This document shows positions 5,162-61,397 of a stretch of DNA of 64,000 bases, piece after piece. Location of the stretch: assembly GCA_000004985.1 (NCBI GenBank), contig GG738846.1. One strand, written 5' to 3'. A model generated the notes under the pieces. The model was not told the DNA's origin, made no database searches, and worked only from the letters and a program-made list of their open reading frames with translations. The first letter of the stretch is position 1. Each line of letters begins with the position of its first letter. A program made the position numbers and the translations under genes. Origin of the DNA: Naegleria gruberi (lineage: Eukaryota).

Positions 5162-5269
5162 TTTTTTGAATTTAAAATTAAGGCGCCATTTTTTTAACAG
5201 CCTTTTAACGAGTCGTATTTAAGCAATAAATCAAACTCTTGCAAGTATTTTATTCATAAAGATTAAAAA

Positions 5270-11171: not shown

Positions 11172-13592
11172 TTAAAGTTCATCCTTTTCAACTGGTTCAG
11201 GCTTGACTTCTTCAGTCTTAACTTCTTCAACCTTCTTATTTTCCTTGGCAAGATTATTCTTATAGGCAAGTTGGGAATTTACACTAGCAATAATACGAGT
11301 AGCAAACTTGTTCTTTTCTTCAATGTCATAACCAGACAAGAGAGAAGCAGTGTCATAGACAAGGTTAATAGAGTTAGTCAATGAGTCATCGTTAACATTA
11401 TTCTTCAAGAGATCATTCATGTTTTGAATGATTGGGTGATTAGCATTGAGTTCCAAGGTTCTCAACTTCATCATCCAATCCATACCACCTTGTTCTTGTC
11501 CCAAAGCTTGAGCCTTCATAATTCTGGCCATGTTAGCAGAGACACCGAATGAGGAAGAAACCAAAACGGCTGGTGCAGAGGAGAGTCTATTAGAAATGGT
11601 AACCTTTGAAACCTTTTCCTTCAAGAGCATTTGAGCAATAGAAGTCAAAGTTTCAAATTCCTTAGTCAAGGATTCCAAATCCTTCTTCTTCTTTTCGAGA
11701 TCTTCATCTGGGAACTTGACATCTTCCTTAGCAATACTTTGAATCTTCATGCCTTGATATTCAGTAACTTGTTGAGTCATGTATTCATCCAATGGATCAA
11801 TCATGTAAATAACTTCCAAATCTCTAGTCTTGAATTCTTCCATGTGTGGAGAGGATTCAACTTCCTTCATATCCATACCAGAAATAAAGTAAATTTGTTC
11901 TTGCTTTTCCTTCTTTCTAGCAACATATTCGTCCAAACTAATTGATTCATTGGTCTTTGAAGTAGTGAAACGCAACATGGAGACAAGCTTTTTACGTTGC
12001 TTTTCATCTTCAATAACACCTAACTTGATGTTCTTTCCGAATTCCTTCCAGAACTTTTCATACTTGGTCAACTTGACTTCTTCCTTCTTTTCTTCACCTT
12101 CCTTAGATTCTTCCTTCTTTTCTTCTCTTTCCTTTCTTTCAGCCTTATCTTGTTCAGACAATTCGTGCAAGATTTGAATAGCCTTAGCCAACAACTTCTT
12201 CTTGATCATGGCCAACAACTTGCTATGTTGAAGAGTTTCTCTGGAAACATTGAGTGGTAAATCTTCAGAATCAACCAAACCCTTAATGAAATTCAAATAT
12301 CTTGGCAATAAATCTTCACCTTGATCAGTAATGAAAACTCTCTTGACGTACAACTTGATATTGTTAGTCTTTTGAGTGAAATCAAACATGTTGTATGGAG
12401 CCTTAGCTGGAACATACAAGAGTGACTTGAATTCAACTTGACCTTCAGCAGAGAACAAATCCCACATCATTGGATCTTCAGTAGCAGCAGTCATTGCTCT
12501 ATAGAATTGAATATATTCTTCTTCGGTAATGTTAGATGGTGATCTCAACCAGAGTGGCTTATTTTCATTCATAATATTCCATTCTTCAACAGTCTTTTCA
12601 ACCTTCTTGGTCTTTGGAGCAGCTGGAGTTTCTTCAGTCTTCTTTTCTTCTTCAACCTTAACTTCTTCAGTGGTTTCTGGAGTAGTGGTTTCTTCAGTAG
12701 TAGTTTCAGTAGTAGTTGTTGTTTCTTCTTCTTCAATTGGAACTTCTTCAGTTTCAGTTCTAACTTCGTGCAAGTAAATTGGGAAGTGGATGAATGAGCT
12801 GTACTTCTTGATCAATTCCTTCAATTTGGTGGCACTAGTGTAATCCTTAGCATCATCCTTCAAGTAGATGGTAATTTCACTACCTCTCTTCAAAGTATCA
12901 CCTCTTGGATCTTCAATAATAGTGAAAGTGTTATCAGCAGTACTAGTCCAGATCAATTGCTTGTCATCATTGTTTTTAGTGGTGACAACAACCTTTGAAG
13001 CAACCAAAAAGACAGAGTAGAAACCAACACCGAATTGACCAATCAAGGCAGAATCAGAAGTTTGAGCTTCCTTTTGGATCTTTTCAATAAAAGCCTTGGT
13101 TCCTGACTTGGCAATGGTACCCAAGTTATTAATCAAATCTTGCTTGGTCATACCAATACCAGAATCTCTAATCTTCAAAATATTGTTAGTGGTATCAGCC
13201 CAAACTCTAATTTCAAGTTCTGGATAGGCATTCAAAGCACTACTATCAGTCAAACTCAAGAATCTAATCTTGTTAAGAGCATCGGAGGCATTAGAAATTA
13301 ATTCTCTCAAGAAGATATCCTTGTTAGAGTAGAGTGAGTTAATAAGAATACCAAGCAATTGATTAATTTCAGCTTGGAATTGATGTTGTTCTTGTTGTGT
13401 GGATTGAGCGTTCAAAATTTGTTCCAATTCATCGGTAACTGTGGAGGTTGATCCAGCAGTGTTTGTATTTTCTACGGTAGGTTCTGTTGATGATGTTTCA
13501 GCACGAACTCCTCCCATCAGGAAGAGTTGGAAAGACAATGTACCCAACAATAACAAGACTAGGGTTAAACAAAGCACGGAATGTTTTCTCAT
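11172..13592 (-). CDS. grp94: Endoplasmin / GRP94 (ER-resident Hsp90 paralogue), apparently single exon.
   Basis: An 806 aa ORF. It has an N-terminal signal peptide (MRKHSVLCLTLVLLLLGTLSFQLFLMGG), the Hsp90 ATP-binding signatures (YSNKDIFLRELISNASDALNKIR, IGQFGVGFYS), a charged linker and the Hsp90 middle and C-terminal domains. It terminates in ...VEKDEL, a KDEL-type ER retrieval signal rather than the cytosolic MEEVD. Confidence 0.95.
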   Translation of the reverse strand: MRKHSVLCLTLVLLLLGTLSFQLFLMGGVRAETSSTEPTVENTNTAGSTSTVTDELEQILNAQSTQQEQHQFQAEINQLLGILINSLYSNKDIFLRELISNASDALNKIRFLSLTDSSALNAYPELEIRVWADTTNNILKIRDSGIGMTKQDLINNLGTIAKSGTKAFIEKIQKEAQTSDSALIGQFGVGFYSVFLVASKVVVTTKNNDDKQLIWTSTADNTFTIIEDPRGDTLKRGSEITIYLKDDAKDYTSATKLKELIKKYSSFIHFPIYLHEVRTETEEVPIEEEETTTTTETTTEETTTPETTEEVKVEEEKKTEETPAAPKTKKVEKTVEEWNIMNENKPLWLRSPSNITEEEYIQFYRAMTAATEDPMMWDLFSAEGQVEFKSLLYVPAKAPYNMFDFTQKTNNIKLYVKRVFITDQGEDLLPRYLNFIKGLVDSEDLPLNVSRETLQHSKLLAMIKKKLLAKAIQILHELSEQDKAERKEREEKKEESKEGEEKKEEVKLTKYEKFWKEFGKNIKLGVIEDEKQRKKLVSMLRFTTSKTNESISLDEYVARKKEKQEQIYFISGMDMKEVESSPHMEEFKTRDLEVIYMIDPLDEYMTQQVTEYQGMKIQSIAKEDVKFPDEDLEKKKKDLESLTKEFETLTSIAQMLLKEKVSKVTISNRLSSAPAVLVSSSFGVSANMARIMKAQALGQEQGGMDWMMKLRTLELNANHPIIQNMNDLLKNNVNDDSLTNSINLVYDTASLLSGYDIEEKNKFATRIIASVNSQLAYKNNLAKENKKVEEVKTEEVKPEPVEKDEL

Positions 13593-14731: not shown

Positions 14732-14836
14732 TTTTTTATTATTATTAATTTTTTAAAAAAGTATTGAAAAAATCTTCTTTGTGGATTTTCAAAGCTCAAT
14801 AAAAAGAACAGATTATTTGCGTTGGTGAATGATGTT

Positions 14837-15752
14837 TCATTTGTAATGTCTTTTAAAATCATGCCATTGAAATGCTGTATTATTTACAATGTTATTATTT
14901 GAAACATTATGCTGTTGTGATGGAGATGTAATAGTTCTTTTCCTTTTCTTTTCATCTTCCAAAACTTCCTCTTCTCCAATCTCTGTGTTGATTAGAGACA
15001 CTTCCTTTGGTAAATGTACTATTTCCTTGTTAGACTTGTTTTTTCCCCTCTGAGGTGAACGAACAACAGTTCTAAACCTTGGAGATTTGAAAGTTAGTAA
15101 CAATGCAGAGTCATTGAAGATATTTACATTCAATCTGAATTTGTCAACTGTTTGATCACTACTAGTTTCTCTAAATCTGAATTCCAATTTAGCTTTTGTG
15201 TAGCCATGCTATTATGTAAAGTCCACATATACATGACAGATGTGTACATGAACAATCATTTAATGCATGCAGAAACATGAAAAGAAAAGTAACATTACTT
15301 TAAATAGAAACCAAACAACATACCTTTGAAACATCTAAATCTTGACAACACCTTCCCTTAATACCTCGTTTTCCCTTTCTCTCACTCTTTACACAAACGA
15401 TTGGAGTATTGGTCATTCCACACACCAGTTCCACTTGTACCCACAAGTTCAAATTGCAATTCACAGTACATACTCGAAGAGTGTACTTAAGAGAGCTCAA
15501 CAAGTGATTTTCACCATTATATACCTCAAATATCAAATTCTTTGTTGATATGACAACTTCGTCTGGTGTGAGTAAAGGTTGTTGATCAAAGGCGTCATAG
15601 TTTTGGAGACCAACTATGCAATCTTCCTCCGAAAAGAAGGATGGTACATACACTTTCGAAGTGCCTCCAGTGTTGTACCTCTTCTTACTAATTTCATGAA
15701 TTAAATTCGGAGAATTGTGATGTTGTTGATAAGTGGTTGTTTGTTGTTCCAT
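14837..15752 (-). CDS. Hypothetical protein, two exons. Possible beta-sandwich DNA-binding-like N-terminal domain followed by a basic tail.
   Basis: ORFs 15300..15752 (MEQQTTTYQQHHNSPNLIHEISKKRYNTGGTSKVYVPSFF...) and 14837..15187 are separated by a ~110 nt AT-rich gap consistent with an intron. No confident family assignment. Confidence 0.4.
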
Positions 15753-16276
15753 TTGTTTTCATACCCAATTCCTACTGATGAGTGTTATAGAGAGGTTGAT
15801 TACGAAAGTGCTAAACAGCAGCCTTATTCACCTTTTTATTTTTCTCAAAACAAGAAGAAATGTATTGTTGGGACCGTTGCTTGTTGGTGTTGTTGATTGA
15901 GTTTGCCCCCAACTAACCAACAAACTACTACTCAAAAAGGTGTTCAACAATACTGAATCGAGCGAGGAATTCACAATACATTTAAACAAACAGTGTGGGG
16001 CAGTTCATTAAAGAGAGTAAATTTAATTACCAGCATTATTGTGATTCCTGGTGATTGTATTTCTATTGATATGAAGGCAATTGATATGAAACATTGAGAA
16101 TTAGATTTTATTGTGAAAGGACGATTACATTTTGAACATGGGAAAACTTGTTTGCCTTTTCAAATTCTACCGTAGTGAATTAACTTCTTTAGGGAGTGTG
16201 AAAACTCGGTTGAACACATATTATTCAATTCACACAGAGTGGATTTTCAGCACTTTTGAGGATACGCAAAATAACT

Positions 16277-17251
16277 TTATTTCTTTTGGACAACTGTTTG
16301 ATTAATTTGACCAAAGATTGAAACCTTATTATTATCAAACATTTCCAATTGAATTCTATCACCAAACTTCATGAATGGAGTTGTAAATTGACCAGTTTCA
16401 ATCTTTTCAATCATTCTCTTTTCAGCAATACATGAACTACCACGTGATTGATCTTCATTACTGACAGTACCGCTTCCAATTATAGTACCAGCAGTGAGAG
16501 CACGAGTTTGTGTAACGTGTTGAATTAAATCATGGAATGAGAAGAACATTTCTGGTCCAGCATTTGGATTACCAAACAATTTACCATTCAAATGTGAAAT
16601 CAAATCACCATGACATCTGCCATCCTTCCACAATTCACCCAATTCATCCAAAGTAACAGCAAAAGGTGAGAAACTACTAGATGGCTTTGAAACAAAGAAT
16701 CCGAATTGTTTTTCCAATTCCTTTGGAATTAAATTACGTAAAGAAACATCATTACAAATCATGACCAATTTGATATATTGACCAGCTTGATCAGCTTTAG
16801 TACCCATTGGCACATCCTTTACAATAACAGCAACTTCACCTTCAAAATCAATTCCATAATCTTCACTAAAATGTTCAACATCTTGATTTGGTCCAATAAA
16901 AGTGCCACTTCCTCCTTGATAAACTAATGGATCTGTACGGAGTGTTTCTGGAGGTTGAGCATTACGTGCTTTACGAACAAGAACAATGTGATTAATGTAT
17001 GCACTACCATCGATCCATTCATAGGAACGTGGAAGTGGAGCCATTAAATTTTGTGATGACAATTCATGAGTGAATTGTATGGTCTTGTATAATTCTTCAA
17101 CTTTTGGATATAAATTATCCCAATCATCTAATAATTGTTGCATGGTTGTACTGATTTCGCTTGGGACTTCGGCATAGTGTGTACCTTCCTTGTTGACAAT
17201 GATTAATCTGCCATCTCTGGTTTGGTTTTTCAAGGTTGCGAATTTAACCAT
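16277..17251 (-). CDS. Fumarylacetoacetate hydrolase (FAH) family protein, bacterial-type ~324 aa, single exon.
   Basis: The FAH-fold C-terminal domain reads GEVAVIVKD...ICNDVSLRNL...SKPSSSFSPFAVTLDEL...TAGTIIGSGTVSN. The length and N-terminal domain resemble prokaryotic FAH-family hydratases/isomerases rather than the ~420 aa animal fumarylacetoacetase. Confidence 0.8.
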   Translation of the reverse strand: MVKFATLKNQTRDGRLIIVNKEGTHYAEVPSEISTTMQQLLDDWDNLYPKVEELYKTIQFTHELSSQNLMAPLPRSYEWIDGSAYINHIVLVRKARNAQPPETLRTDPLVYQGGSGTFIGPNQDVEHFSEDYGIDFEGEVAVIVKDVPMGTKADQAGQYIKLVMICNDVSLRNLIPKELEKQFGFFVSKPSSSFSPFAVTLDELGELWKDGRCHGDLISHLNGKLFGNPNAGPEMFFSFHDLIQHVTQTRALTAGTIIGSGTVSNEDQSRGSSCIAEKRMIEKIETGQFTTPFMKFGDRIQLEMFDNNKVSIFGQINQTVVQKK

Positions 17252-17468
17252 TTTTCTTGTTTGTGTGGGTGTTGTTATAAAGATGGAGGTGGCTTATTTT
17301 TTTTGAAAGTGAATTTGGTAGGTACTGGAGCTTTGAAAGATTCGCAGTCGTTGAGATTAAGTTTACAATGATAACAAATAAGTTATTAAATATACAATAT
17401 AAAAATTTTATTAATAAAGAGGATTGTCACAATGGAAATTTGTTGAGACCTGTATCATTATAATTTTA

Positions 17469-20400
17469 TTAAAATTTAAAACTCTTAGATCTCATCATTC
17501 TAGGTGAAGCAATACTGTCACTTGTTATCGAGGACATTTCATCATCAACCGTAATGCTAGTGTTTGTAAATGTTAAATACTTCTTCAATAGATAACGTTT
17601 AACAATCAAATTGCACTTGGTATAGATTGGTCGATTGAAGGATTTGATTCTATCTTGAATTAAGAACTGAATGCCCAAGATGGTATCATCTACATCACGA
17701 ATACCTTCAGACATTACTTCAAAACTATAAATCTTATTCTGTGTGGCAATACTAAAGCATTTGAAAGGTCTATAAATAATATTAGTATTCTTAAAAGCCT
17801 GAGAGTAAGGTCCGTAAACTATCCACTTAATATCTTTGGACAATTCAATTTTCGTTGTTTTCTTGAATAAAGACTTTCCTGATGCAGAGATGGAAAGGCA
17901 CTTTGAGTCTCTATCTAGTTTGAGTATTCTTTTGTGGACTTTATACTTCTTCTTCTTAATGTCATAATCGTGCAAGTAACAATTAATACCCTTCTTAACT
18001 CTCAGAAGCCTACTTGGTTCACCTTTGAGTAATATCTTGCTTGGTGTTAACAGTTCAACTCTTGGTGAGTCCAACTCATTATGATTTGGAATTGACAAAC
18101 TTAGAGGTGAGGAAAGCCTAGTGGTAGGGGATTTAGTTGGGGTAAAAGCAAATGAATTTTCGGAACTTAGGGTTGTATCAAGGAAGCTTTGAATAATGCT
18201 AAACTCATCTTCAGGTACATCGACAACAGAGTATGTGGGTGGAGTTGGTTTAGGTTGATTTTCCTCAATTACTGCTACAATTTCTGGTATTTCAATAAGG
18301 GGCTGCTCATTGTCTTCAATAAGAAAATCTTCCATTTCTTTGGGTATTTCAATATTAATACTATTGTTTTGACTATTTGGCTGACTTCCTCTATTAAATT
18401 GTTCAATTACTTCATCCTCTAGTGTTGTTAACAAGTCATGGTCCTCAATTTCACTTTCTTCAACAATGAAATCTTTGAATGGTGATCTTTGCTGTTCATC
18501 CTCTTCTTCTCCAACAAAATCATTGGTTAAATATAATAGATCCTCTTCTTGACTTGGGGATGGATCATTTCGATATTGTTGAGGAGAATTTTCATCATAA
18601 TCATGGAGGAAATCATTCTCTTGTTTTGGAGATAAATCATTTACAATTCGAAAGGGAGGACTTGGTGGGTTTCTATTTGGAAGTAATGTATGGTTATGTG
18701 GAGGTGAAAAATCCACCACTAGAGCAGATTCTTCCTTTCCAATTGGAGAGATTGGATGGTCATCTTCCTCGACTGTTAGAGTTATATCACTCGAAGAATC
18801 ATCTGAATCATTGTTGTACTCTTCAACGTGAGTGGACTTACAAAGGAAAGGAACATTCTTGGTTGGGGAAGTATAGACATGTGGGGAAGTATACTCTTTT
18901 CTTGCATTTACGTCATTCAGATGTTTCAAGTGCTCGAGTTCTTCCTTCAACTTTTTTTGCATGTTTAGCTTTTCTAATATAAGGTTGTTCGTTGTTGGTG
19001 GGGAGTATTTAGTTTGGGGAGTTTGGTTTTGTGTAGATGTTGAGGCTGGTTTTGGGGGAGCATATTTTTGTAATTGACTAATGAAAGACAGCAACGTTTG
19101 GTTTGGTTTTCTGTTAAGAGTCGAGCTAGGGTTGAATTCCTGTTTGGGCTGCATTTGGAAAGACGGGTTGAAATCAATAACGATTGGTTTTGAGCTTGGA
19201 ACGTTTGATTTTGGTTCCTGTTTGGGGGTTACTGATTTTTTAACTGGTGAAGTCCTTGGAGGTGTATTATTCTTAGTTGAGGCAGGAATATCAAATGTAA
19301 CACTCGGTCTTGCCTCCTTCAACTGTTGATTATTATCTGCTCTAGTTTTGACCTGAATAGGAGAAGGAGTTGAACGAGTTACATCTTCTAATACTCTATT
19401 TGGTGACCTCTGTTTGGTTGGTGAGAGATGTATGGTTTTGATTGGACTATTGATATTGTCCAGAATCTTTTTCTTTTCGTTAAGTTTCATCTCTATTTGC
19501 ATTAGTTCCTTCTCTAGCTCTTCTTCATCAAAGAAATCGTCTGAATCCTGAATATCCTCTTTCAAAGAATCAATATTGCTGGGTTCTTCTCGATCTAATG
19601 GTGTCTCCATACCTGTATTGGTGTTCAGTATTTTTAGAAGAGGATTTGCTTCGTCAAGCTCAATGTTTTCCTCATCAAGAGCCTGAACAATTTGTTTTGT
19701 GATAATCTCTTTCTTCTCTGGGCCGGATTTGATGGTTTTTAAATTGAGGTTGGAATCTTTTTGAGGTGAAAGTGATGATTTCGTTTGAGCGATTACCTTG
19801 TTGCTATGTTGATGACTAGTTGTGTTGAATGAAGCTGACTCTTCCACAGGAATACCTGTAATTTCCATTCGTACTCTATCCAGATAATCCTTATTTGAAA
19901 CAATTGCATCCTCCAAAGTTACTGAGACGTGCTTTATGCGGTGTGTATTGGCAAAAGTATGAGAGCCAATAAATGTTAATTGTAAGAATCGTAGAATATT
20001 CTGCTCTGGAATTATAAACGTGTCTGGAAGTAAGTCAATTGAGTTCTCAAAAATCCAATTATCATTAATCGTTTTAAATCCAAAATTTGGATGATGAGAG
20101 GTTGATATTACACATTTCTTTGGTTTTCCATTATGAGATGAGTACACTGTAATTCTAACCACTTTCTCACAAGGACCTATCTTTTTCCTTGTCAATGTAT
20201 TTGAAATGCTTTGTAATTCCAAAGTACATGACGACATGTCGGTCTTACTAATATTAGTGATCCACATTTGATTACTCTTATTGATATTGACTACATCCTT
20301 AATATATCGTTCCGAGATTACCTTATGGCAATTACTTCCAGTACTGTTGATTAGAGATTTGATAATATTTTCAATAACCATTGTGTTCATACTTGATGTA

Positions 20401-20810
20401 GTATTGTTAGTACTAATGTTATCATGGGCTTCCGAATTTAATATCGCCTGTTCATTCAACGATGGTTCTTTGTAATGATGTAACAAGGACAGTATATTAA
20501 AATCCTGTGATGATGGAATAGTATGATTGGATTTTGTTATGGAAATAGGAGATCTGTTCTTTTTTGTATTTTTAGAAAGGTATTGTCTTTCTATTTGTTC
20601 TAATAAATCATCGTTTAGGTAATCATTAAGCAAATCATTATTAAGGTTTGATGAATATTGAAAATTGGAACCTTCTTGTATAACTAGTTGTCTTGATACA
20701 TCCTTTTCCACTTCAAGAGATCGGGAGGGAGTAGAAGTTACCTCCTCATAATTCAAATACTCTTCCCGAACATTTTGTTTTGAATTTTTTGAGGTTCGAC
20801 CTTGAATCAT
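17469..20810 (-). CDS. Large low-complexity protein (1113 aa) with a C-terminal PH-like globular region.
   Basis: A single ORF with an A-rich leader at the 20810 ATG. It has long S/T/P/N/Q-rich and acidic segments. The C-terminal ~200 aa (..LLRVKKGINCYLHDYDIKKKKYKVHKRILKLDRDSKCLSISASGKSLFKKTTKIELSKDIKWIVYG...) has a PH-domain-like hydrophobic/basic pattern. No catalytic motif. Confidence 0.6.
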   Translation of the reverse strand: MIQGRTSKNSKQNVREEYLNYEEVTSTPSRSLEVEKDVSRQLVIQEGSNFQYSSNLNNDLLNDYLNDDLLEQIERQYLSKNTKKNRSPISITKSNHTIPSSQDFNILSLLHHYKEPSLNEQAILNSEAHDNISTNNTTSSMNTMVIENIIKSLINSTGSNCHKVISERYIKDVVNINKSNQMWITNISKTDMSSCTLELQSISNTLTRKKIGPCEKVVRITVYSSHNGKPKKCVISTSHHPNFGFKTINDNWIFENSIDLLPDTFIIPEQNILRFLQLTFIGSHTFANTHRIKHVSVTLEDAIVSNKDYLDRVRMEITGIPVEESASFNTTSHQHSNKVIAQTKSSLSPQKDSNLNLKTIKSGPEKKEIITKQIVQALDEENIELDEANPLLKILNTNTGMETPLDREEPSNIDSLKEDIQDSDDFFDEEELEKELMQIEMKLNEKKKILDNINSPIKTIHLSPTKQRSPNRVLEDVTRSTPSPIQVKTRADNNQQLKEARPSVTFDIPASTKNNTPPRTSPVKKSVTPKQEPKSNVPSSKPIVIDFNPSFQMQPKQEFNPSSTLNRKPNQTLLSFISQLQKYAPPKPASTSTQNQTPQTKYSPPTTNNLILEKLNMQKKLKEELEHLKHLNDVNARKEYTSPHVYTSPTKNVPFLCKSTHVEEYNNDSDDSSSDITLTVEEDDHPISPIGKEESALVVDFSPPHNHTLLPNRNPPSPPFRIVNDLSPKQENDFLHDYDENSPQQYRNDPSPSQEEDLLYLTNDFVGEEEDEQQRSPFKDFIVEESEIEDHDLLTTLEDEVIEQFNRGSQPNSQNNSINIEIPKEMEDFLIEDNEQPLIEIPEIVAVIEENQPKPTPPTYSVVDVPEDEFSIIQSFLDTTLSSENSFAFTPTKSPTTRLSSPLSLSIPNHNELDSPRVELLTPSKILLKGEPSRLLRVKKGINCYLHDYDIKKKKYKVHKRILKLDRDSKCLSISASGKSLFKKTTKIELSKDIKWIVYGPYSQAFKNTNIIYRPFKCFSIATQNKIYSFEVMSEGIRDVDDTILGIQFLIQDRIKSFNRPIYTKCNLIVKRYLLKKYLTFTNTSITVDDEMSSITSDSIASPRMMRSKSFKF

Positions 20811-20889
20811 TTTTTTTATTTCTAACTGATAACAATTTTAGGCGGGAAATTGTTTTTCTCTCCTAAAACTGTTAAACAAGGTGGAATTT

Positions 20890-20940
20890 CTCTAACTTTA
20901 ATTTTAAATTTGAAAAATAGTGCTCAAAGGGAAATGAACA
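20890..20940. repeat. Direct repeat copy A (tctctaactttaattttaaatttgaaaaatagtgctcaaagggaaatgaac).
   Basis: Shares a 22-nt identical core, aatttgaaaaatagtgctcaaa, plus flanking similarity with copy B at 22916..22993. The two copies bracket the P-loop NTPase gene at 21030..22681. Confidence 0.7.
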
Positions 20941-21029
20941 GAACTTCCTCTGTGTAGACCGATGGCATGACGACCATACTGAACTGCAATAAGTGCACCT
21001 CTATCATTCAATTTAGGAAATCTCTTATT

Positions 21030-22681
21030 TCATTGATTAAAGTTTTGACAGAAAACCATTTCCCTTATTTTATCGGTAATATTGATCAAATTTCTTGGTT
21101 CTTTGTTGCACCAATATATCACAATTTCTTGATAGAGGATTGGACAATCATCACATTGATAACACACAACATTTCTGATTGCTTTGATGCTTTTTTTTAC
21201 GAGATTTTCCTCATCATCTATTATTTTAATGTGGTAATGAATAGAATTGTTAAGTAATCCATTATTAAGTACCTTAGCAAACTGTTTGTGATCATGATTA
21301 GCTATTCCAAGAGTTTCTAGGGGGGATTGAATTAACTTGGTGGACTCACCCAAAAAAAGGAATGGTAACAACAAGTGAAAATGATACTCTACATCATTAG
21401 CTCTCCTCGAGTTAAAAAAACTGTCCCATCTAAATGTGATATAAGAACTGAGCAATGAGTCTCTAAGTTCATACTCTCGCGTCTCCTTGTTGAATACAAA
21501 GAACATGGAACTATTAATCCCATAGCCACAGAGGGCTCTGTCTGTTATAAAGGCTGGAACAGATTTGGTTTTGAAAATTGTCCAAGCCTCCTCTCGCTTT
21601 AGCCCTTTAACAATATTACCAATATCTCTATCATAAATGGTGAATATTTGTTGAACTAGATCAGCAATGGCTTGTTGGAGCGTTTTAGTTTTGCATTGAG
21701 AAATAACTTGGTCAACATAACTGCAGTGATACACCTCTAACGAATCTCGTATGATTTTTAGAAGTTCTGTGTCCACAAATTTTCTTTTGAAGATGTAGTT
21801 ATGGAATATGGCCACTTCCCTTAAATTTGCAGTTGCACTTGATCTTGGAATGTCATAGGTCATGTTATTATCAGAAAATGAAAACCCATTAGCGGGTACA
21901 TCTCTCAAATTTCTGAGTATAAGTGATTGAGTACTTCCAGTCCAAATACTAAGGAAATTTGTTGTACTTTTTAGAGATGGAGATTTAAAAACCTTCTTGA
22001 GAAAGTTTAAAGCGTCAGAAGATAATAGTTGAATTTCGTCCAATACAAAGTAAACCATCTTATTGCTTCTTTTTTTCAAATACTCTGTCATTGGATTGTG
22101 CAGAGATATTCCTTGCTGACAGTTGTATATGTTCGCTCCTTCACCAACAAAGCTACAAGAATTCTATTCACATAATCGTAATCTCTTTCTTGCTCATTCT
22201 TTGGAAAATCTCTAATATCAAGATAATGAACTTCATAGCCAATGTAATTATTAATTCTCCTACAGCAATGAACAGAGTGTAGATAAGGAAAAAGGTATCT
22301 TGCTGTAGTAGTCTTTCCTGTTCTCACTAACCCTGTTACAAAAACATGATAAATACATTTACTAATACCTCCTCTACAATATTGGGCACATTGAGAGGCA
22401 AATGCATTCAATTCAGGGAAATTATTTACCTGACACCATTCATCCTGATTGCCACCATTAAAATAATAAAGAGCAGAGGTAATACCTGCCTTAACGAATT
22501 TTACTTCTTGGCCATCAAGAGATTCAAGTTCAAAATTATGAAAATTTTCATTAAATTTTCTAATTGTATATTCTTCTTCTGTTTCACTAGTTTCGGAAGT
22601 AATGGTTTCTTGTTGAGGCTGGTGTATAGACTTTGTGGGAGGTTCTTCAAAACGGTCACTGTTTGAATGATTGCGTTTCAT
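21030..22681 (-). CDS. P-loop NTPase of uncertain family (Walker A GLVRTGKTT, Walker B YFVLDEIQLL), two exons joined by a 62-nt intron.
   Basis: Track ORFs 22088..22681 and 21030..22091 overlap by 4 nt in different frames. Removing GTCAGCAAGG...GCAATAAG (plus 22057..22118, 62 nt, length 2 mod 3) fuses them in frame (...VKERTYTT|MVYFVLDEIQLL...). This places Walker B ~90 aa after Walker A, as expected for one NTPase domain. The C-terminal ~300 aa ends in a Cys cluster, CYQCDDC...YWC. Family not identified (AAA+/ORC-like versus transposition-NTPase-like). Confidence 0.55.
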
Positions 22682-22915
22682 TTTTTAAAGATCTGAATAT
22701 TCTTTCAGGTAGTTCACTTATGCAGTAGTGAAAATGGTTGTAGCTGAGTAAGGATTCGTGTAGTGCCATGCAACATTTTGAAAAGTAACAAGTTTAGAAT
22801 AATTTAATTGAATGGAGTCAATCCTTTTTTTACTGCTGATCTTTTCATAATTCTATCAATACATGCCTTAATATGTGGACATGATTGCAAGTTTTGAGAT
22901 TGCAAGTTATGAATT

Positions 22916-22993
22916 TCTCTTACCTTAATTTTAACTTGTAATCAAAAATACTAGTAATCAATTTGAAAAATAGTGCTCAAACGGAAAATGAAC
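22916..22993. repeat. Direct repeat copy B (tctcttaccttaatttta[26-nt insertion]aatttgaaaaatagtgctcaaacggaaaatgaac).
   Basis: Same orientation as copy A. Carries a 26-nt insertion relative to copy A. Overlaps the 5' leader region of the DENN-domain gene. Confidence 0.7.
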
Positions 22994-23043
22994 TGGATTC
23001 AACGTCACTTGTCTACGAAGCGAAAGAATCAATTATTAAAAAA

Positions 23044-26000
23044 ATGAGGAAGAATTTTCGCACAGTCTCAGAGCTGCCACCAACATCACCTCGAAAACCA
23101 CTCCCAACATTGCCCAATCTTTTAAAATCTTCTAATAACAACGGCTCCAAACTCCTGCCAACATCACCACGAGGACAGCAAACATTTGTTGCAATCAGTA
23201 CCGATGAGGAAGAATTAATCAGTCTCTTATCAATGGAAGGAACAAAGGTGTTTGTGATTGGTTTGTGGGATGAGACGAGTCCTCTTCTTTCTAATAACTC
23301 TTCGAATGCTACTACAACAGGTAACAGTAGTACGATTGGAACTACAAGGAGAGTGCCACCACCACTCCCACCAAAGACAACATTAAATAATAGAAGATTG
23401 AGTAAAATCTGCTTTGACACAACATGTTTCATATCGGAAGATGGAAAGGCTCTAGTTTGTGAGAGTGATTTACCATCATCAGGACCTTTGGGAATGCAAA
23501 AACGAAGTAATAGTATGTTGTTATTAATTTCACATGCATATTAATATTGGAATTTTTCATCTCAATTGTCAATACTACTATCTATTACATAATTTGTCAC
23601 ATTATGATCTGATTTCATTGATAATAATATTATTATTATTATTAATAATAGTAATTCTCTTTTCCGAAGTGGAAAAGATTGTACCATACTATCAATCAGA
23701 AATATTGATAGGAAACCAGATTTCAGACTCAAATACTAATAACACAATATCACCAAGACAATCCAACAATTCAAATCCCTATCAAATCACCACTCAAGAT
23801 GCACGTGAATGTGTCTCCTTCTTTGAAAGATACTTCATTTCAGGCTATGACAATAACGATAGAGAATATCAAAAATCTCTCCTTCCCTACAAGCTGCAAC
23901 TCTTCATTCTCAAACGAAAGAACCACAAAAAGACGTTGGGATTCATCTTATCGGGTATGTTTTTTAATCAAAGTCTAAGATTGTGCTTACCATATTGCCT
24001 TAATTGATTTTTGCCTTGTCGCAATTTTTTACCACCAAATCCTTAAATTTCCGAATGTTGTTGTTGTATTGTGTTGCATGTGGCTACATCATGGTGATTC
24101 TATCAAAAATTGAAAAAACCCCTTTACTCTCTAATCTCTCATCTATATTTTCTCATTGGACGTCAATTAATATGCACTCACTTTCCAATAATCGGAATTC
24201 TAAAACTCTAAACTCTATACCTCCTACTGAATTAACATGTAATAATGATTCATCATCTCCATCATCATCACCCAATAATAATAATAATAATAACACTGTT
24301 GAATCAACAATAACACCAACTCGACAACGTTGTCTACCACCTGTTCCTCCAAATAATGTACAAAAACAATCATCTCCCCAACCTCCTCCTCCTCCTTTTA
24401 ATCGACAATCACCTCCCCAACCTCCTAAACGAACAACCTCAACAATGGAACATTCATCATCTATTATTTCTGATAATAATATGAATTCTGAATCAACCAT
24501 TTATGCTAACAAATCAACAACAAATAATTCACCTCCTCATCAACAATATCATCATCATCGTACCTTACCAATAATTCCAATTCGAAATTATCATGAAAAT
24601 GATATTACACCTTCAACTCTTAATCCTACTGTTGTTACTACTTTTCAAAATCATTCCAATAACCATAATCACTCTGTTCCTGCATTGCCAATTAAAAAAG
24701 ATCCAATGCAAGCATCAACATGGATAAAAGGATTACAAATGGTTTCTGATGATTCAAGAGGACTTTTATCTGCATCAACTCTTGCCAAAACAACCAATGT
24801 AAATAATCAATCATCTAAAATTGAGGAAGAAAAGAGAACATCTTTTGGAAACAAGAAGACTGAAATATCAAGTGACAATACCAGATACTTGCCACCACCA
24901 TTGAAAATCAATAGAATGGAATCACCTAATAATGATGTAAATAATGAATTGGCTAAACAATTACAAAAATTGAAAAGAACACCAGCAACACCAACTACCA
25001 GCTCTACTTCGAATGGTGGCAGTGGGTCTAATTCTTCAAGTAGACATTCTAGTATTGAGATACAAAGAGGAAGTGACCCAGAAACAAGTGCAGAGAAGAA
25101 ACTATTTGAAGTTGTGGTAGTAGTCAAACTGAAACAAACAGACAAATTGGAACCTTTCATAGATTATGAATTTCCACCACAAAATGTCAGAAGTACAAAA
25201 GACTTGAAACTTGTCATGTCAATTCCATTATTTTGTTGTAAGTTATTGTAAAAATTAATATGAAAAGCTAAGAGTCACTAGTTCCTGATATTGATACTGT
25301 TAAGGAGGGGACTTCATTATCAGGTGGTGATAAGAAAACATATAGCTTTGTCTTGACAGAAATAGATGGTACTAGAAAGTATGGATACTGCAGAAGAATG
25401 CTTCCAAAAGGTACTGGGAAACGATTGCCAGAAACTTACTGCATCATTTCTTCACACTCATGTTTTGGATTATTCTCTACAATACTCGATAATATTGAAA
25501 CAAGAAATGAAATTAATAATGTGGCCTGTTTCACTTTCCTTAAAAGTGTACTAGCTAATCCATTTCCATCACCAGGTACCTGCACCATTGTCAAGACAGT
25601 AAATCCCAAGACAGGTCAACAGGAAGAAGTTAAATTATCTAGACCTATTCTTGCTGATCCAATGTTGGAATACGTAAGTTTCATGAAACAAACCTATTTT
25701 GATTTTAATATCCAACATACGTATTATTAATAATTCTATCATCAAATAATAGATTAATTTCAACATATTATTCGAGAGTCTTTCTGCTGACAATATAATT
25801 ACCATGTTTGCATTTTTATTAATGGAAAGAAGAATGGTCATATTTTCAAATGACATTTCAAAATTATCTGCATTTTGTCAGGCAATGATTAGTATATTGT
25901 ATCCTTTTACATGGCAACATGTGTTCATTCCAGTTTTACCTCAATCATTGGTTGACTATGTTTGTAGTCCTGTCCCATTTGTCATTGGTGTCCTCAGTAA

Positions 26001-26553
26001 TCACAAACCATATATTGAGGAGCTGAAGAAGGATGGACAAGTAGAAGCAGAAGTGCTCTACATTGATATCGATTCTGGAAAGGTTTCAGAACCTTCTACC
26101 CTCAAGGATCAAAAGAAGATACTACCAAGCAATAAGGACTTGATTAAAAAGTTGACAGCTATCGCCAAGGAAATCAAAAACTCAAAGAATTCAAATCAAG
26201 TAGCAATGGCAAAAGACACATTTTTAATGTTCTTTGTTAAATTATTTGGAGATTACAAGGCATTTATCAAGCCGAATGCTGAATTTAATACTGAAAAGAA
26301 GAAGAATACACCCGAGTGGATATTCGATACCAAAGTGTTCTTGGACTATAAGAAGAAGAATAACAAGAAAAAGTATGAAAAGTTCTTTATCAACTTTACT
26401 CAATGCCAAATGTTCGAACGATGGTCTGCTGAAATAGCAAACCAAAGTCAAAACAAATCTGCCACTACTGCTTCACTAGATAAGGAACTTGGTTTGTTTG
26501 AACAACTTTCAGCCATATCTCAACAACAATTACTTTTGGACAAAAAGAAATAA
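23044..26553 (+). CDS. DENN-domain protein (uDENN-cDENN-dDENN; Rab GEF family), at least 5 exons with a long low-complexity N-terminal region.
   Basis: uDENN/cDENN: ...EKKLFEVVVVVKLKQTD..., GGDKKTYSFVLTEIDGTRKYGYCRRMLPKGTGKRLPETYCIISSHSCFGLFSTILD. DENN core: ITMFAFLLMERRMVIFSNDISKLSAFCQAMISILYPFTWQHVFIPVLP. dDENN: KDTFLMFFVKLFGDYKAFI...FINFTQCQMFERW. Introns seen at ~25247-25291 (GTAAGTTATTG...TCACTAG) and ~25675-25755 (GTAAGTTTCATG...AATAATAG). The likely ATG at 23044 (MRKNFRTVSELPP) is in frame with the track ORF that starts at a TTG. Confidence 0.75.
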
Positions 26554-48133: not shown

Positions 48134-50976
48134 TTAATTGTTATTCAACCCTCTTTGTGAAAAGTAGTGATGTTTTAAAATAGAGCCAGCATCTGGTCGT
48201 CTTTCTGGATCCTTCTCCAACATGCTAAACACCAACTCCACCAACTCTAATGAATAGATCTGTAAACTAATCTTCTCCTTTAATATTTGTTTGACAGTTT
48301 CAGAATCCTTTAACATGTACATTTGATTGATGGAAGTTGTTGTATCATGAGATAGAATCTGGTATAGAGTAACTCCCAAACTGAATATATCAGTTTTATG
48401 ATCACATGAAATTCCACACAACAATTCTGGTGAAATATACAATGGAGTTCCAGCTAATGAAAAACTGGTTGATTGTTTTGAGTTTTTTGCCAAACCAAAA
48501 TCAGCAATGATAATGTCAATGGCTGAATCATTCATTTTCTGAATGAAAATATTGGAAGGTTTAATATCTCTGTGAATAACTCTGATTTAGTGTTAAATCC
48601 ACATATTTTAATATGTTTCTAAACTTACCCAAAGTTGATGAAAATATAATCCAAGGCACTACATGATTGAAATAATATTTGAGCAATTAAAAGTTCTGAA
48701 CAAAATTTGGATCCAGTAATGAGTCTATTCAAATCACCCATCTCATAATAAGTCATATCAATACATAGAATTTGACCATTTCCAATAAAGAAATCATTCA
48801 CTTTGAGAACATTTGGGTGATTCATCTTTAAAAGTTGAATTCCTTCTCTCATAGCCACGTTCAAATCTTCATGGTTATCAAATCTAACCACTTTGATTGC
48901 TTTGACTTCATTATTACATTTAGTGTCATTCACTTTAAACACACTTCCACCTTGTCCAATCTTTACCAAATTTGTATATCTATCCATTGGATCATTTTGA
49001 GATTCTTTTGAAGATGAAGTATATTGAGAAGGGAAATCAGAAATCATTGTTGATTGTGTGAATGATTTTAATTCTTCTTCCGAAGGATTCACCGTATCAA
49101 TGTTCAAAGTTGCTTCCTTTGCTCTATTTCTATTAATTAACACAATAATGATAATTACAAAAATTACAATGATTAAAATTACAATAAATAGGGTTGGAAC
49201 AAGTACTGCAACTAGTATAGTTGTTTGATCAGATTGAGCACTAAGATTTGTTCCATTATTTTGCTTATTAATTGCTGAGCAATCCTTATTATAAGTTGTT
49301 ACATCTGATGTTGGACATGTACAAGTGTCAGGAGCTGTACATTCACCAATACTTGAACAAACCAGTCTACTACTAGAAGAAACTCCAAAACAATTAAATG
49401 TTTCACAATCAGCTCCACTATAACCTGTCTGACATGAACAATTGTTTGGTGCAATGCAATTTCCTTTTGAGGAACATACGTTTACATCTGTTTTGAGTAT
49501 ATTATTACATTTAAACATGCTACATGTGGAATTTAGATATCCACTATTACAAGTACATTCATCTTTGGCAGTACATTTACCAAAACCTGAACAAACATTT
49601 GGTTGACTATTTGATATTCCAAAACATGAATATTCCTGACAATACGACCCATTATAATGATCTTGACATGAACAAGCATTATATGCATAACAAAATCCAT
49701 GTGAAGAACAAACACCTGAACTGTCATATCTTACTCCATTGCAATTAAATAAATTACAACTAGTTCCATATCCAAAATATCCTTCAAAACAATTACAATC
49801 ACTTCCTGATTGAGTAGAATTTAAAGGACATGGTACAATTTTTCTAATATAATTATAATTAGTGTCTGCAATAAATATTTCACCCAATTGATTGATTGAA
49901 ACTCCATGAGGTGATAAATTTGTAGAATTTCCCAATAAACCATCCCCATTGAAAAGTTGATTTCCTGTTCCAGCAAATGTTGAAATAATTCCACTTGTTG
50001 AAATCTTTCTAACTCTGAAATTGACTGAATCTGCAAAAAATACTTCACCCAATTGATTTACTGTAATTCCTCTAGGTGAAAATATCTTTGCCATTGTTCC
50101 TAATATTCCATCTCCATTGTAACCATTTGAACCTATTCCAGCAATTGTGGTAATCGTACCATTTGTCAATATTTTACGAATTCTAGAATGAGAGAGAACT
50201 GAAATGTATACTTGACCTATTTGGTCAACTGCAACACCTGTAGGAGAACAAATATTTGCATTAGTTGCTAAAATACCATCTCCATTAAAATCACATGATC
50301 CTGTTCCAGCAATTGTTGTAATGGTACCATTTGTCAAAATTTTACGAATTCTATTATTTCCAGTATCTTTCCAAATTTAACAGTTAAAAGTTCAACAATA
50401 ATACCTACCTGCAATTATAACTTCTCCCAATTGACTAATAGCAACTGCATTTGGATTTTTAACATTGGCACTTGTTGACGGAATAAAATCACCATTATAG
50501 GCTCCATCTCCAACACTAGTCCCAGCAATTGTTGTTATGGTACCATTTGTCAATATTTTACGAATCCTATTTCCAAATTCAGCAATAATAATTTCACTCA
50601 GTTGACTAACAGCAATATCATAGGGATAGTAAAGTTGGGCATTGGTAGCTAGTATGTTATCACCATTATATCCAGCAGTACCAGTTCCAGCAATTGTTGT
50701 TATTGTGCCATTAGTTAAAATCTTTCGAATACGATGATTGCTCGTATCTGATATCAGAATCTCCCCAGTTGATTCGAGAAAGGCAACAGATGAAGGTGAA
50801 TTTAGAGTTGCAGATGATGCCAACATGTAATCTCCATTGTAAACACTTGAACCCGTTCCAGCAATTACTTTCAAATAGTTTCCAACTCCAAAAGTTGTTT
50901 GTTGTGCTGTGCTTGTTTCAACAACCAACCATGCAGAAAGTAGAAGCAAGCACATGTAAATGATTTGTCGAAACAT
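48134..50976 (-). CDS. Receptor-like protein kinase, three exons. Signal peptide, NHL-type beta-propeller repeats, EGF-like Cys repeats, one TM segment and a cytoplasmic Ser/Thr(-Tyr) kinase domain.
   Basis: Exon 1 is 50976..~50382 (MFRQIIYMCLLLLSAWLVVETSTAQQ...). Repeated (R)IRKI(L)TNGTITTIAGTG..YNGDG units resemble NHL repeats. Intron ~50338-50381. Exon 2 has ~8 CxCxxG EGF-like repeats, the TM segment ILVAVLVPTLFIVILIIVIFVIIIIVLI and kinase subdomains (VKIGQGGSVFKV, AIKVV). Intron ~48560-48623 (GTAAGTTTAG...AAATCAG). Exon 3 has HRDIKPSNIF, DFGLAK and GTPLYISPE. Confidence 0.8.
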
Positions 50977-60328: not shown

Positions 60329-61306
60329 TTAAAATTGAGCATCAACAAAATTTCTATGATATAGACTACTAAACCTATATTTTCTATTTTCAGTATAGAA
60401 TAATCTTTGATAATCTTGTGGTGTTAAAATATCCTTTTTTGATTTCAATCGTTCTTGATATTCCTCATTGACTTTTCTACTGTCCATGGTTGATATGGAG
60501 TTTTGATGGCGAATATTATTTTGAATTCTTTCGTTCAGACTCATTCTATTTTCAGTGTTGGCATTTACAATATAATTCTGAGTGAAGTATCTGTGTTCAT
60601 GATCAAAGTTTGAGGCAATTTTCAAATCATACAATAGGTCATTAGAAACTCTATTGGATTTTATCAAATCTGATATACTATCATACTTGATGGAATGTAA
60701 TTGCAAATAAAGATACCATAAATATTCCAAATCCACTGGTTTTCCCTTTCTAATCGAGAATATATGTAAATCAAGAGGATGTACCAATAAATCCTTATCA
60801 TTATTATTAACATTCAAATCAGTTGTCAAATCATCCCAATATTTCAAATATTCTTCATTGAAAAACATTCTCATATTTGATTCCTCTTGTGTCAAGTCAT
60901 ATTCTGTAGCATATGGATAAGGAGCTTCAAATCTATATATAAAACAAGTTTCCTTCTTGTGATACAATCTACTTTTAAATATATTTGTCATGTTAATTGC
61001 CGGAATATTGGTCCAATATTGTACTGTTTCATCAAATGAAGAGGAAGGTAAAAAGGAAAACCCAATAAATCCAATAGTTGAGACTGCAGAGATGAGCAAG
61101 GCTCTTGTTGTAAATTTCCTCTGATAAATAAATTTTGAGAGAAAATTCAACTTGACCTCCGTTTCAGGTTTTTGAAAGAAGGAATAAAATTGTGAAAATT
61201 TTGATAATTTAAATTTTGAATTATTTGCTCGTGATGATGATTGGTAATTTATCGGATTTGGAAGAATTTTCCTATCTGCTGATGATGTTTCTGGATCTTG
61301 TTTCAT
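60329..61306 (-). CDS. Hypothetical membrane protein (~325 aa), probable type II/signal-anchor topology.
   Basis: The likely start is MKQDPETSS at 61306. The track ORF extends further upstream via an in-frame non-AUG region. It has a single TM helix, ALLISAVSTIGFIGFSFL, then a Tyr/Asp-rich lumenal or extracellular domain. Confidence 0.5.
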   Translation of the reverse strand: MKQDPETSSADRKILPNPINYQSSSRANNSKFKLSKFSQFYSFFQKPETEVKLNFLSKFIYQRKFTTRALLISAVSTIGFIGFSFLPSSSFDETVQYWTNIPAINMTNIFKSRLYHKKETCFIYRFEAPYPYATEYDLTQEESNMRMFFNEEYLKYWDDLTTDLNVNNNDKDLLVHPLDLHIFSIRKGKPVDLEYLWYLYLQLHSIKYDSISDLIKSNRVSNDLLYDLKIASNFDHEHRYFTQNYIVNANTENRMSLNERIQNNIRHQNSISTMDSRKVNEEYQERLKSKKDILTPQDYQRLFYTENRKYRFSSLYHRNFVDAQF

Positions 61307-61397
61307 TTTTTTAATATAAATATTTAAATAATATCGATCTTGGAGTTTTAAAATAATATTAATCATATATTTATGAATAATTTTCAATTTAATTTCA

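What the first reader, a model, noticed from the sequence alone, without database searches (positions are those of the whole stretch)
20890..22993. P-loop NTPase gene with a frame-restoring 62-nt intron, flanked by same-orientation ~50-80 bp direct repeats.
The gene 21030..22681 encodes Walker A (GLVRTGKTT) and a DEIQ-type Walker B ~90 aa apart, followed by a 300-aa Cys-containing C-terminal domain. DEIQ/DEAQ Walker B variants are typical of AAA+ helper NTPases such as TniB/IstB/ORC-Cdc6-like. The gene is bracketed by repeats sharing an exact 22-mer (aatttgaaaaatagtgctcaaa) and ~50 nt of flanking similarity. A second large NTPase with a GKGKT Walker A and an NEIQ motif lies at the window end (61398..64000). 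Repeat-flanked NTPase genes may mark a domesticated or decayed mobile element, or a lineage-specific family. Alternatively the repeats are shared regulatory elements.
Basis: partly seen in the sequence, partly recalled or inferred. Interest (0 to 1): 0.5.

Follow-up and report, generated by a model that had tools for sequence, protein, structure and literature searches.

The report
Frameshifted Naegleria AAA+ ATPase gene
This is a single-exon Naegleria gruberi gene for an uncharacterised, lineage-restricted ORC/Cdc6-like AAA+ ATPase that is broken by a one-base frameshift, not by an intron, and its flanking repeats are a local duplication of promoter-proximal DNA, not the ends of a mobile element.

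Summary
The window is Naegleria gruberi NEG-M. The gene (minus strand, 22681..21030), its Walker A and Walker B motifs and the flanking direct repeats are all real.

The 62-nt "intron" is not supported. A full-length paralogue, NAEGRDRAFT_74127 (72-77% identical), is colinear with the window across the frame change. The supposed intron encodes conserved residues in the downstream frame. The frames meet at 22155-22156, where 2 nt stand in place of one codon. GenBank splits the locus into a 197-aa stub (NAEGRDRAFT_61937) and a chimera with the downstream gene.

The protein belongs to a small family found only in Heterolobosea (Naegleria, Willaertia): 8 hits among 1.84 billion representatives. 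Its predicted fold is closest to archaeal Orc/Cdc6, archaeal Walker-type AAA+ ATPases of unknown function, and NLR/STAND ATPases.

The repeats (62 and 88 nt, 92% identical) occur only here in the window. They are absent around three relatives on other contigs. No transposase, inverted repeat or poly(A) accompanies them. They lie at matching distances upstream of the two outer genes, which suggests a duplicated bidirectional-promoter core.

The second "NTPase" at the window end has no profile support and is unrelated. Overall this is ordinary: a broken or mis-assembled paralogue of an unstudied AAA+ family.

The parts
21030..22681 (-). Whole NTPase locus. It is a single exon interrupted by one frameshift, with ATG at 22681 and stop TGA at 21032-21030.
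   Evidence: Colinear with paralogue NAEGRDRAFT_74127 (P0001) over its full length.
22157..22681 (-). Upstream reading frame, codons 1-175 (through ...YVNRIL). Read on to the premature stop at 22088, it gives GenBank protein NAEGRDRAFT_61937 (197 aa).
   Evidence: 77% identical to P0001. No stops in 175 codons, against about 14 expected in shuffles.
22155..22156 (-). Frameshift site. Two nucleotides (GT) stand where the paralogue has one codon (Arg), so either 1 nt is missing or 2 nt are extra.
   Evidence: Alignment A2: NRIL / SFVGEG in the window versus NRIIRSFVGEG in P0001. Three-frame translation.
21030..22154 (-). Downstream reading frame, 374 codons plus stop (SFVGEGANIYNCQQGISLHNPMTEYLKKRSNKMVYFVLDEIQ...).
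   Evidence: 72% identical to P0001. No stops in 374 codons, against about 28 expected in shuffles.
22059..22120 (-). It is not an intron.
   Evidence: In the downstream frame it encodes ...QQGISLHNPMTEYLKKRSNK, which matches P0001 ...STQYNPITEYLEKRSDK. Introns inferred in the neighbouring gene begin GTAAGT or GTATGT.
22307..22333 (-). Walker A motif, GLVRTGKTT.
   Evidence: GxxRTGKT is conserved across most of the family.
22029..22052 (-). Walker B strand, YFVLDEIQ.
20884..20946 (+). Left direct repeat R1. It lies 74-136 nt upstream of the ATG (20810) of minus-strand gene A, and 84 nt past the NTPase stop codon.
22911..22999 (+). Right direct repeat R2. It carries a 26-nt insertion that looks like a degenerate copy of the repeat core. 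It lies 45-133 nt upstream of the ATG (23044) of the plus-strand DENN gene B, and 230-318 nt upstream of the NTPase ATG.
   Evidence: The reading of the 26-nt insert comes from inspecting the sequence.
17469..20810 (-). Gene A, the outer neighbour (1113-aa ORF, no Pfam domain). GenBank fuses it to the NTPase 3' half in a 1315-aa chimeric model (P0027).
23044..26553 (+). Gene B, the other outer neighbour. It is a multi-exon DENN-domain protein.

Best explanation
The locus is one intron-less gene on the minus strand (22681..21030) of Naegleria gruberi NEG-M.

What it encodes: a roughly 550-aa AAA+ ATPase from a small family restricted to Heterolobosea. It has an N-terminal beta-rich segment, then an ATP-binding core with Walker A GxxRTGKT, Walker B hhhhDEIQ and a TGSTQ motif at the position expected for sensor 1. 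A helical lid carrying the IYDRD motif follows, and then a helical C-terminal region. By fold it most resembles Orc/Cdc6 initiators, archaeal Walker-type AAA+ ATPases and STAND/NLR switches. I therefore infer that an intact copy acts as an ATP-dependent assembly or switch protein: it would bind ATP, oligomerise or clamp a partner or nucleic acid, and reset by hydrolysis. This function is inferred, not shown.

State of the window copy: in the reference sequence the gene is interrupted by a single frameshift at 22155-22156. It is either a very recently inactivated paralogue of NAEGRDRAFT_74127, possibly on one haplotype only, or the victim of a base-call or assembly error. There is no intron.

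The repeats: the flanking 62 and 88-nt direct repeats are a local duplication. Each copy sits about 50-135 nt upstream of the start codon of one outer gene (gene A on the minus strand, DENN gene B on the plus strand). The most economical history is that A and B once shared a bidirectional promoter region of about 180 bp. The roughly 2-kb NTPase segment (20947..22910) came to lie inside it, and the promoter core was duplicated so that each outer gene kept a copy. Selection on both copies would explain why they are far better conserved than their surroundings. The history and the promoter function are inferred.
For: Organism:
- Seven window ORFs are exact matches to N. gruberi NEG-M proteins on the 1,001,995-bp scaffold.

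Frameshift rather than intron:
- P0001 aligns colinearly to the upstream frame (77% identity) and then the downstream frame (72%), with exactly one residue unaccounted for and 2 nt left over.
- All family members are colinear through this region.
- The proposed donor GTCAGC differs from the GTAAGT and GTATGT donors inferred in gene B.
- GenBank models stop at the premature stop (P0016, 197 aa) or build a chimera (P0027), so the annotators did not call this intron.

The break is recent or artefactual:
- There are 0 stops in 175 and 374 codons, against about 14 and 28 expected.
- All family motifs are intact in the window copy.

Family and fold:
- An exhaustive HMM search of 1.84 billion representatives gave 8 hits. 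The named ones are all N. gruberi, N. lovaniensis, N. fowleri or Willaertia magna.
- Pfam AAA_14 scores 31.2 bits against a cut-off of 27. AAA_22 matches 9 of 12 members at the E<=0.1 listing limit.
- A profile search of PDB sequences finds Cdc6 and ORC5 weakly (E 0.01-0.3).
- The AlphaFold2 model has pTM 0.64, with pLDDT mostly 70-90 over residues 60-260 and 320-370 and lower (48-69) over 251-320.

Repeats:
- Only two copies exist in 64 kb, expected 0.01.
- 57 of 62 aligned positions are identical, while the adjacent sequence is unalignable.
- R1 lies at -74..-136 from the gene A ATG and R2 at -45..-133 from the gene B ATG.
- There are no such repeats around relatives in L003/L004, L005 and L006.
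Against: - Whether the frameshift exists in the organism could not be tested. No independent N. gruberi read or assembly covering 22155 was reachable. The one close-strain contig found, L008 (98.3% identical), stops about 1.8 kb short of the left repeat.
- The promoter-duplication history rests on geometry alone. I could not obtain the A-B region of any other Naegleria genome, and the chimeric-query attempt returned nothing useful. No transcription start data are available.
- Relative to the minus-strand genes, both repeats also lie upstream in the same orientation (gene A and the NTPase). So R2 could belong to the NTPase promoter and not to gene B.
- The C-terminal 180 residues of the structural model have low confidence, so the domain assignment there is open.
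- No biochemical function is known for any family member.
Confidence: 0.6

Rival explanations
1. One reading: the gene is functional and contains a genuine 62-nt spliceosomal intron (22120..22059), giving a 529-aa protein.
For: A GT..AG interval of 62 nt does restore the reading frame. Short introns do appear to exist in the neighbouring gene. The spliced product still scores on Pfam AAA_14.
Against: - The interval, together with the 34 nt before it, encodes SFVGEGANIYNCQQGISLHNPMTEYLKKRSNK in the downstream frame. This matches the paralogue's SFVGEGATVVDCMQDSTQYNPITEYLEKRSDK. Such conservation is not expected of intron sequence.
- The upstream-frame residues just before the 'donor' (VALLVKERTYTT) have no counterpart in P0001.
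- The donor GTCAGC is unlike the local GTAAGT and GTATGT donors.
- Neither GenBank model uses it.
Confidence: 0.06
2. The repeat-flanked 2-kb unit is a mobile or decayed mobile element, with the NTPase acting as a TniB/IstB/TnsC-type transposition helper and the repeats as element termini or a long target-site duplication.
Against: - No transposase, integrase or reverse transcriptase ORF was seen in or beside the unit among ORFs of 40 aa or more. The two flanking genes lack such Pfam domains.
- No terminal inverted repeats lie at the boundaries, and no poly(A) follows the 3' end.
- The named proteins give three copies in N. gruberi, two in N. lovaniensis and one in N. fowleri. The N. fowleri and N. 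lovaniensis long forms are at least 90% identical, which fits vertically inherited genes.
- Relatives in L003/L004, L005 and L006 sit among ordinary genes without flanking repeats.
- The repeat has no third copy in 64 kb.
- TnsC hits rank well below Orc/Cdc6, archaeal AAA+ ATPases and NLRs.
Confidence: 0.06
3. The repeats are two instances of a cis-regulatory module kept by selection (for example co-regulation of the flanking genes, or an NTPase promoter plus a gene A promoter). They have no connection to how the NTPase arrived.
For: Both copies are promoter-proximal. Conservation forms an island with unalignable flanks. R2 contains an extra degenerate copy of the core, as happens when binding sites multiply (sequence). 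Read on the minus strand, both copies lie upstream of minus-strand genes in the same orientation.
Against: A 62-nt match with a 22-nt exact core is far longer than a typical shared binding site, so common descent by duplication is still required. No further copies lie upstream of the roughly 25 other genes in the window.
Confidence: 0.25

Closest known systems
Archaeal Orc1/Cdc6 initiators (e.g. Aeropyrum pernix ORC2, PDB 1w5s) and eukaryotic Cdc6/ORC subunits
   Different: Only 10-13% identical. A C-terminal winged helix is not resolved in the model. The family is confined to Heterolobosea and has several paralogues, one of which is apparently broken, so these are not the replication initiators themselves. 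An extra N-terminal beta-rich segment is present.
Archaeal Walker-type AAA+ ATPases of unknown function (PAB2304, PDB 2qen; SSO1545, PDB 2fna)
   Different: No significant sequence or Pfam match to that family appeared at E<=0.1. The taxonomic range is different.
STAND/NLR ATPases (NB-ARC: plant NLRs, CED-4) and BREX BrxC
   Different: There is no C-terminal repeat sensor domain (LRR, WD or TPR) and no recognised effector domain. Sequence matches are below Pfam thresholds.
Transposition helper ATPases TniB/TnsC/IstB
   Different: No partner transposase and no element ends were found. Copy number is low, and orthologues in other Naegleria species look vertically inherited.

Membership tests
P-loop NTPase / AAA+ superfamily | Walker A GxxxxGK[ST] and Walker B hhhhDE | tested here: met
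   GLVRTGKTT (22333..22307) and YFVLDEIQ (22052..22029). Both are conserved across most of the family.
P-loop NTPase / AAA+ superfamily | Profile match to an AAA-type Pfam model at or above its curated threshold | tested here: met
   AAA_14 scores 31.2 bits (cut-off 27) on the window protein and 29.8 on P0001. AAA_22 scores 25.8 (cut-off 27), just below.
P-loop NTPase / AAA+ superfamily | Alpha/beta core followed by a helical lid domain | tested here: met
Orc1/Cdc6 replication initiators | Significant sequence homology or orthology to ORC/Cdc6 | tested here: inconclusive
   Best PDB profile hit is Cdc6 at E=0.01, others at 0.12-0.3. No Pfam Cdc6/ORC hit. The distribution is limited to Heterolobosea.
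Orc1/Cdc6 replication initiators | C-terminal winged-helix DNA-binding domain | tested here: inconclusive
   The C-terminal region (residues about 385-559) mostly has pLDDT below 50.
TniB/TnsC/IstB transposition ATPases | Encoded within a transposon, next to a transposase, and bounded by element ends | tested here: not met
   The neighbours are an uncharacterised 1113-aa gene and a DENN gene. No inverted terminal repeats were found. Relatives' loci have ordinary neighbours.
STAND/NLR ATPases | NB-ARC or NACHT profile match plus a C-terminal repeat sensor domain | tested here: not met
   22120..22059, 62 nt.
   The interval encodes residues conserved in P0001 in the downstream frame. Homologues align through it, and the frames meet 35 nt upstream of it.
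   No RNA-seq or EST data were reachable.
Repeat-bounded mobile element | Multiple genomic copies carrying the same terminal repeats | tested here: inconclusive
   No further copy exists in the 64-kb window, and relatives in L003-L006 lack flanking repeats.

The most novel reading that the evidence does not exclude
The family could be a Heterolobosea-specific, STAND/Orc-like ATPase switch used in a lineage-specific defence or cell-fate pathway. Its fold is as close to NLRs and BrxC as to Cdc6. The long forms carry a shared N-terminal module, and in one contig that module recurs in a gene lying beside a family member. Copies also seem to be gained and lost. Separately, this locus could record a gene landing inside a bidirectional promoter, tolerated because about 60 bp of promoter core was duplicated so that both flanking genes kept it.
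Probability: 0.15. Interest if true: 0.45.

Novelty: new member of a known kind. Interest (0 to 1): 0.15.

Why it matters
- **Annotation.** Two GenBank models at this locus are artefacts of one frameshift. NAEGRDRAFT_61937 is a 197-aa stub. The 1315-aa model fuses the NTPase 3' half to the next gene. They should be replaced by one (pseudo)gene plus a separate downstream gene.
- **A new family.** The work defines a small, undescribed AAA+ family restricted to Naegleria and Willaertia. It has clear signature motifs (GxxRTGKT, VLDEIQ, TGSTQ, NGFS, IYDRD). It may interest people studying Naegleria-specific biology, including N. fowleri (FDP41_013052).
- **Limits.** No new mechanism is demonstrated. 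The promoter-duplication history is only a hypothesis.

Tried and rejected
- **DNA of the paralogue and of the window's own scaffold.** Exact-protein look-ups found no record for N. gruberi proteins. I therefore could not compute dN/dS or check for repeats at the NAEGRDRAFT_74127 locus.
- **Synteny in other Naegleria.** A chimeric gene A + gene B protein query returned only the N. gruberi chimera P0027.
- **JGI metagenome scan with the family profile.** It gave 57 pattern matches, none a relative.
- **Exact 22-mer in metagenomes.** Two hits came back, both inside a conserved ORF (MKEKMDLLLNEIKEK...) on contigs that do not resemble Naegleria. By eye the ORF looks like a bacterial aminoacyl-tRNA-synthetase gene, which was not verified. 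These are taken as chance matches.
- **Rfam scan of 20400-23400.** Nothing at E<=1, so the repeats are not a known RNA gene.
- **Viral origin.** BFVD fold search gave only generic AAA+ hits with TM 0.2-0.35. Of the 8 sequence hits, those carrying a source name are all heterolobosean and none carries a viral label.
- **First structure prediction.** With a 3-sequence alignment it was unusable (pLDDT 31). The afdb50 fold library was unavailable.
- **Programmed -1 frameshifting.** Considered and rejected. A -1 slip between 22164 and 22154 would restore the frame, but no X_XXY_YYZ slippery heptamer is present there (sequence).
- **Retroposition.** Rejected because there is no poly(A) tract between the stop codon and R1.
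- **Literature search for the locus tags.** No paper mentions them.
- **Close-strain contig L008.** It is 98.3% identical to the window but ends inside gene A, short of the locus.
Full report
**Source of the window.** The window is AT-rich (31-37% G+C) and eukaryotic in style. Seven of ten long ORFs are exact matches to Naegleria gruberi strain NEG-M proteins on a 1,001,995-bp scaffold. Among them are HSP90 XP_002682891 at 11172..13592 and fumarylacetoacetate hydrolase XP_002682893 at 16277..17251.

**Observation.** On the minus strand two ORFs abut: 22681..22088 (197 aa) and 22091..21030 (353 aa). Walker A GLVRTGKTT (22333..22307) and Walker B YFVLDEIQ (22052..22029) are present. The 22-mer AATTTGAAAAATAGTGCTCAAA occurs at 20907 and 22960, both on the + strand. 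There is no other match in 64 kb even with three mismatches allowed (expected 0.01). Similarity extends to 20884-20946 and 22911-22999: 57 of 62 aligned positions are identical, interrupted by a 26-nt insertion in the right copy. That insertion looks like a degenerate extra copy of the repeat core. So the gene, its motifs and the repeats are real.

**The intron is not real.**
- A GT..AG interval of 62 nt that restores the frame exists at 22120..22059.
- The only close homologue is N. gruberi NAEGRDRAFT_74127 (P0001, 559 aa, on a different 261-kb scaffold). It is colinear with the window through this region.
- P0001 reads ...NRIIRSFVGEGATVVDCMQDSTQYNPITEYLEKRSDKMVYFVLDEIQ. The window gives ...NRIL in the upstream frame, and SFVGEGANIYNCQQGISLHNPMTEYLKKRSNKMVYFVLDEIQ in the downstream frame.
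- Exactly one residue is unaccounted for, and two nucleotides (GT, 22156-22155) lie between the frames. The discontinuity is therefore a frameshift of one missing or two extra bases, 35 nt upstream of the supposed intron. The 'intron' itself encodes conserved residues.
- More distant family members are also colinear here.
- The proposed donor GTCAGC differs from the donors of the introns I infer in the neighbouring DENN gene, which are GTAAGT, GTAAGT and GTATGT.
- GenBank does not use this intron either. It holds the 197-aa upstream ORF as NAEGRDRAFT_61937 (EFC50151, D2UZH3). It also holds a 1315-aa model (P0027) that starts inside the NTPase's downstream frame (MTYDIPRSS...) and splices over the left repeat into the next gene. 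Both models are artefacts of the frameshift.
- I saw no slippery heptamer that would suggest programmed frameshifting.

**Is the gene dead?** Apart from this one lesion, both frames are completely open. There are 0 stops in 175 and 374 codons, where shuffled sequence gives about 14 and 28. All family motifs are intact. So the break is either very recent, possibly on one haplotype only, or a sequencing or assembly error. I could not distinguish these. No independent N. gruberi data covering the site could be reached. An ENA metagenome contig from a 98.3%-identical strain ends inside gene A. In another Naegleria-like organism a family member shows a frame change inside the conserved TGSTQ motif, and the same 157-aa fragment ORF recurs in a second assembly (L006, L007). 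Loss of copies may therefore be common in this family.

**What the protein is.**
- An exhaustive HMM search of 1.84 billion cluster representatives found only eight proteins. The named ones are N. gruberi (74127, 61937, 71305), N. lovaniensis (C9374_011505, C9374_003606), N. fowleri (FDP41_013052) and Willaertia magna (ABK040_010957). The rest come from unlabelled environmental or run assemblies.
- Signature motifs are GxxRTGKT, hhVLDEIQ, TGSTQ, NGFS, IYDRD, LRD and LGE.
- Pfam gives AAA_14 just above threshold and AAA_22 just below. NCBIfam gives nothing useful.
- A family profile finds Cdc6 and ORC5 weakly among PDB sequences (E 0.01-0.3).
- With the 12-sequence alignment, AlphaFold2 gave a usable model of the paralogue. 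It has pTM 0.64, with pLDDT mostly 70-90 over residues 60-260 and 320-370, lower (48-69) over 251-320, and a poor C-terminus.
- Viral structure libraries give only generic AAA+ matches.
The protein is neither a housekeeping initiator nor a transposition helper. I infer an ATP-dependent assembly or switch protein; this is inference only.

**The repeats.**
- They are unique to this locus within the window. They match no Rfam family. Their only exact matches in metagenomes lie inside a conserved ORF on unrelated contigs and are taken as chance.
- Nothing else marks a mobile element. No transposase-like ORF was seen, and the two flanking genes have no such Pfam domain. There are no inverted termini and no poly(A).
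- Family copy number is two or three per annotated Naegleria genome, and the N. fowleri and N. lovaniensis long forms are at least 90% identical. Relatives on three other heterolobosean contigs sit among ordinary genes with no flanking repeats.
- Geometry is suggestive. R1 lies 74-136 nt upstream of the ATG of gene A (minus strand, 20810). R2 lies 45-133 nt upstream of the ATG of gene B (plus strand, 23044; a DENN-domain gene).
- Removing 20947..22910 would leave A and B as a divergent pair sharing about 180 bp with one copy of the element in the middle.
- The paralogues differ at about 25% of residues. Neutral DNA of that age should be far more diverged than 8% (binomial P about 6e-4 even at 25% divergence). 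The sequence next to the repeats is indeed unalignable.
- Either both copies are under selection, or the small duplication is younger than the gene's arrival.
- My preferred reading is a duplicated core of a former bidirectional promoter. A closely related alternative is a regulatory module unconnected with the gene's arrival. Both remain untested, because I could not reach other Naegleria genomes.

**The second 'NTPase'.** ORF 61398..63803 contains GVSGKGKT and VVFNEIQ. It has no P-loop hit in Pfam, NCBIfam or PDB sequences. It shows no similarity to this family by BLASTP or profile comparison. It does not support a repeat-flanked NTPase family.

**Verdict.** The finding reduces to three things: a frameshifted (or mis-assembled) paralogue of an uncharacterised, Heterolobosea-restricted AAA+ ATPase; two faulty public gene models; and a locus-specific duplication of about 60 nt of promoter-proximal sequence. 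Interest is low.

Noticed in passing
window 44591-45401 and 46182-46993: An 812-bp segment is duplicated in direct orientation at 99.3% identity, 1591 bp apart. It covers NAEGRDRAFT_61946 (144 aa) and part of NAEGRDRAFT_61947 (360 aa), which fall in the same 90% protein cluster. This is either a very recent tandem duplication or an assembly duplication.
   Followed up: partly
window 17469-21870 (GenBank model P0027): The public 1315-aa N. gruberi protein is a chimera. Its first 197 residues or so are the NTPase's downstream frame. A predicted intron of about 445 nt, which removes the NTPase C-terminus and repeat R1, joins them to the 1113-aa gene A.
   Followed up: yes
window 60329-63803 (minus strand): The 'second NTPase' ORF (801 aa, with GKGKT and NEIQ strings) has no family or structure-sequence match. 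It overlaps the next ORF (60329..61426, 365 aa) by 29 nt, so it may be another gene split by a frameshift or short intron. It runs towards the window end.
   Followed up: partly
L006 4882-6452 and L007 (same 157-aa ORF): A family member in another Naegleria-like organism changes reading frame inside the conserved TGSTQ motif. It also lacks about 36 residues between Walker A and Walker B relative to N. lovaniensis C9374_011505. The same 157-aa fragment ORF is present in two assemblies (ENA and Logan), so this is a probable pseudogene. A stretch of about 60 nt with three stops further on may be a true intron.
   Followed up: partly
L006 6974-9963: Just downstream of that family member, one gene carries two copies of the N-terminal module found in the long family members (N. 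fowleri FDP41_013052 type). The next ORF has a weak NPHP3_N/P-loop match. This hints at domain shuffling among neighbouring STAND-like ATPase genes.
   Followed up: partly
L008 (ENA ERZ929261) = window 14695-19084: A metagenome contig is 98.3% identical to the window over 4.4 kb (35 mismatches, 6 gaps). A second N. gruberi-like strain or haplotype therefore exists in public data and could be used to check the frameshift and repeats.
   Followed up: partly
window 49865-50571: Internal direct repeats at 74-92% identity lie within or between the minus-strand ORFs 48625..50337 and 50392..50976. They are probably a repetitive coding region.
   Followed up: no
L003 3852-5535: The environmental family member P0018 (427 aa) is probably truncated in its gene call. 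The C-terminal family region continues in another frame about 100 nt downstream (5194-5490), suggesting an intron or a frameshift there.
   Followed up: partly
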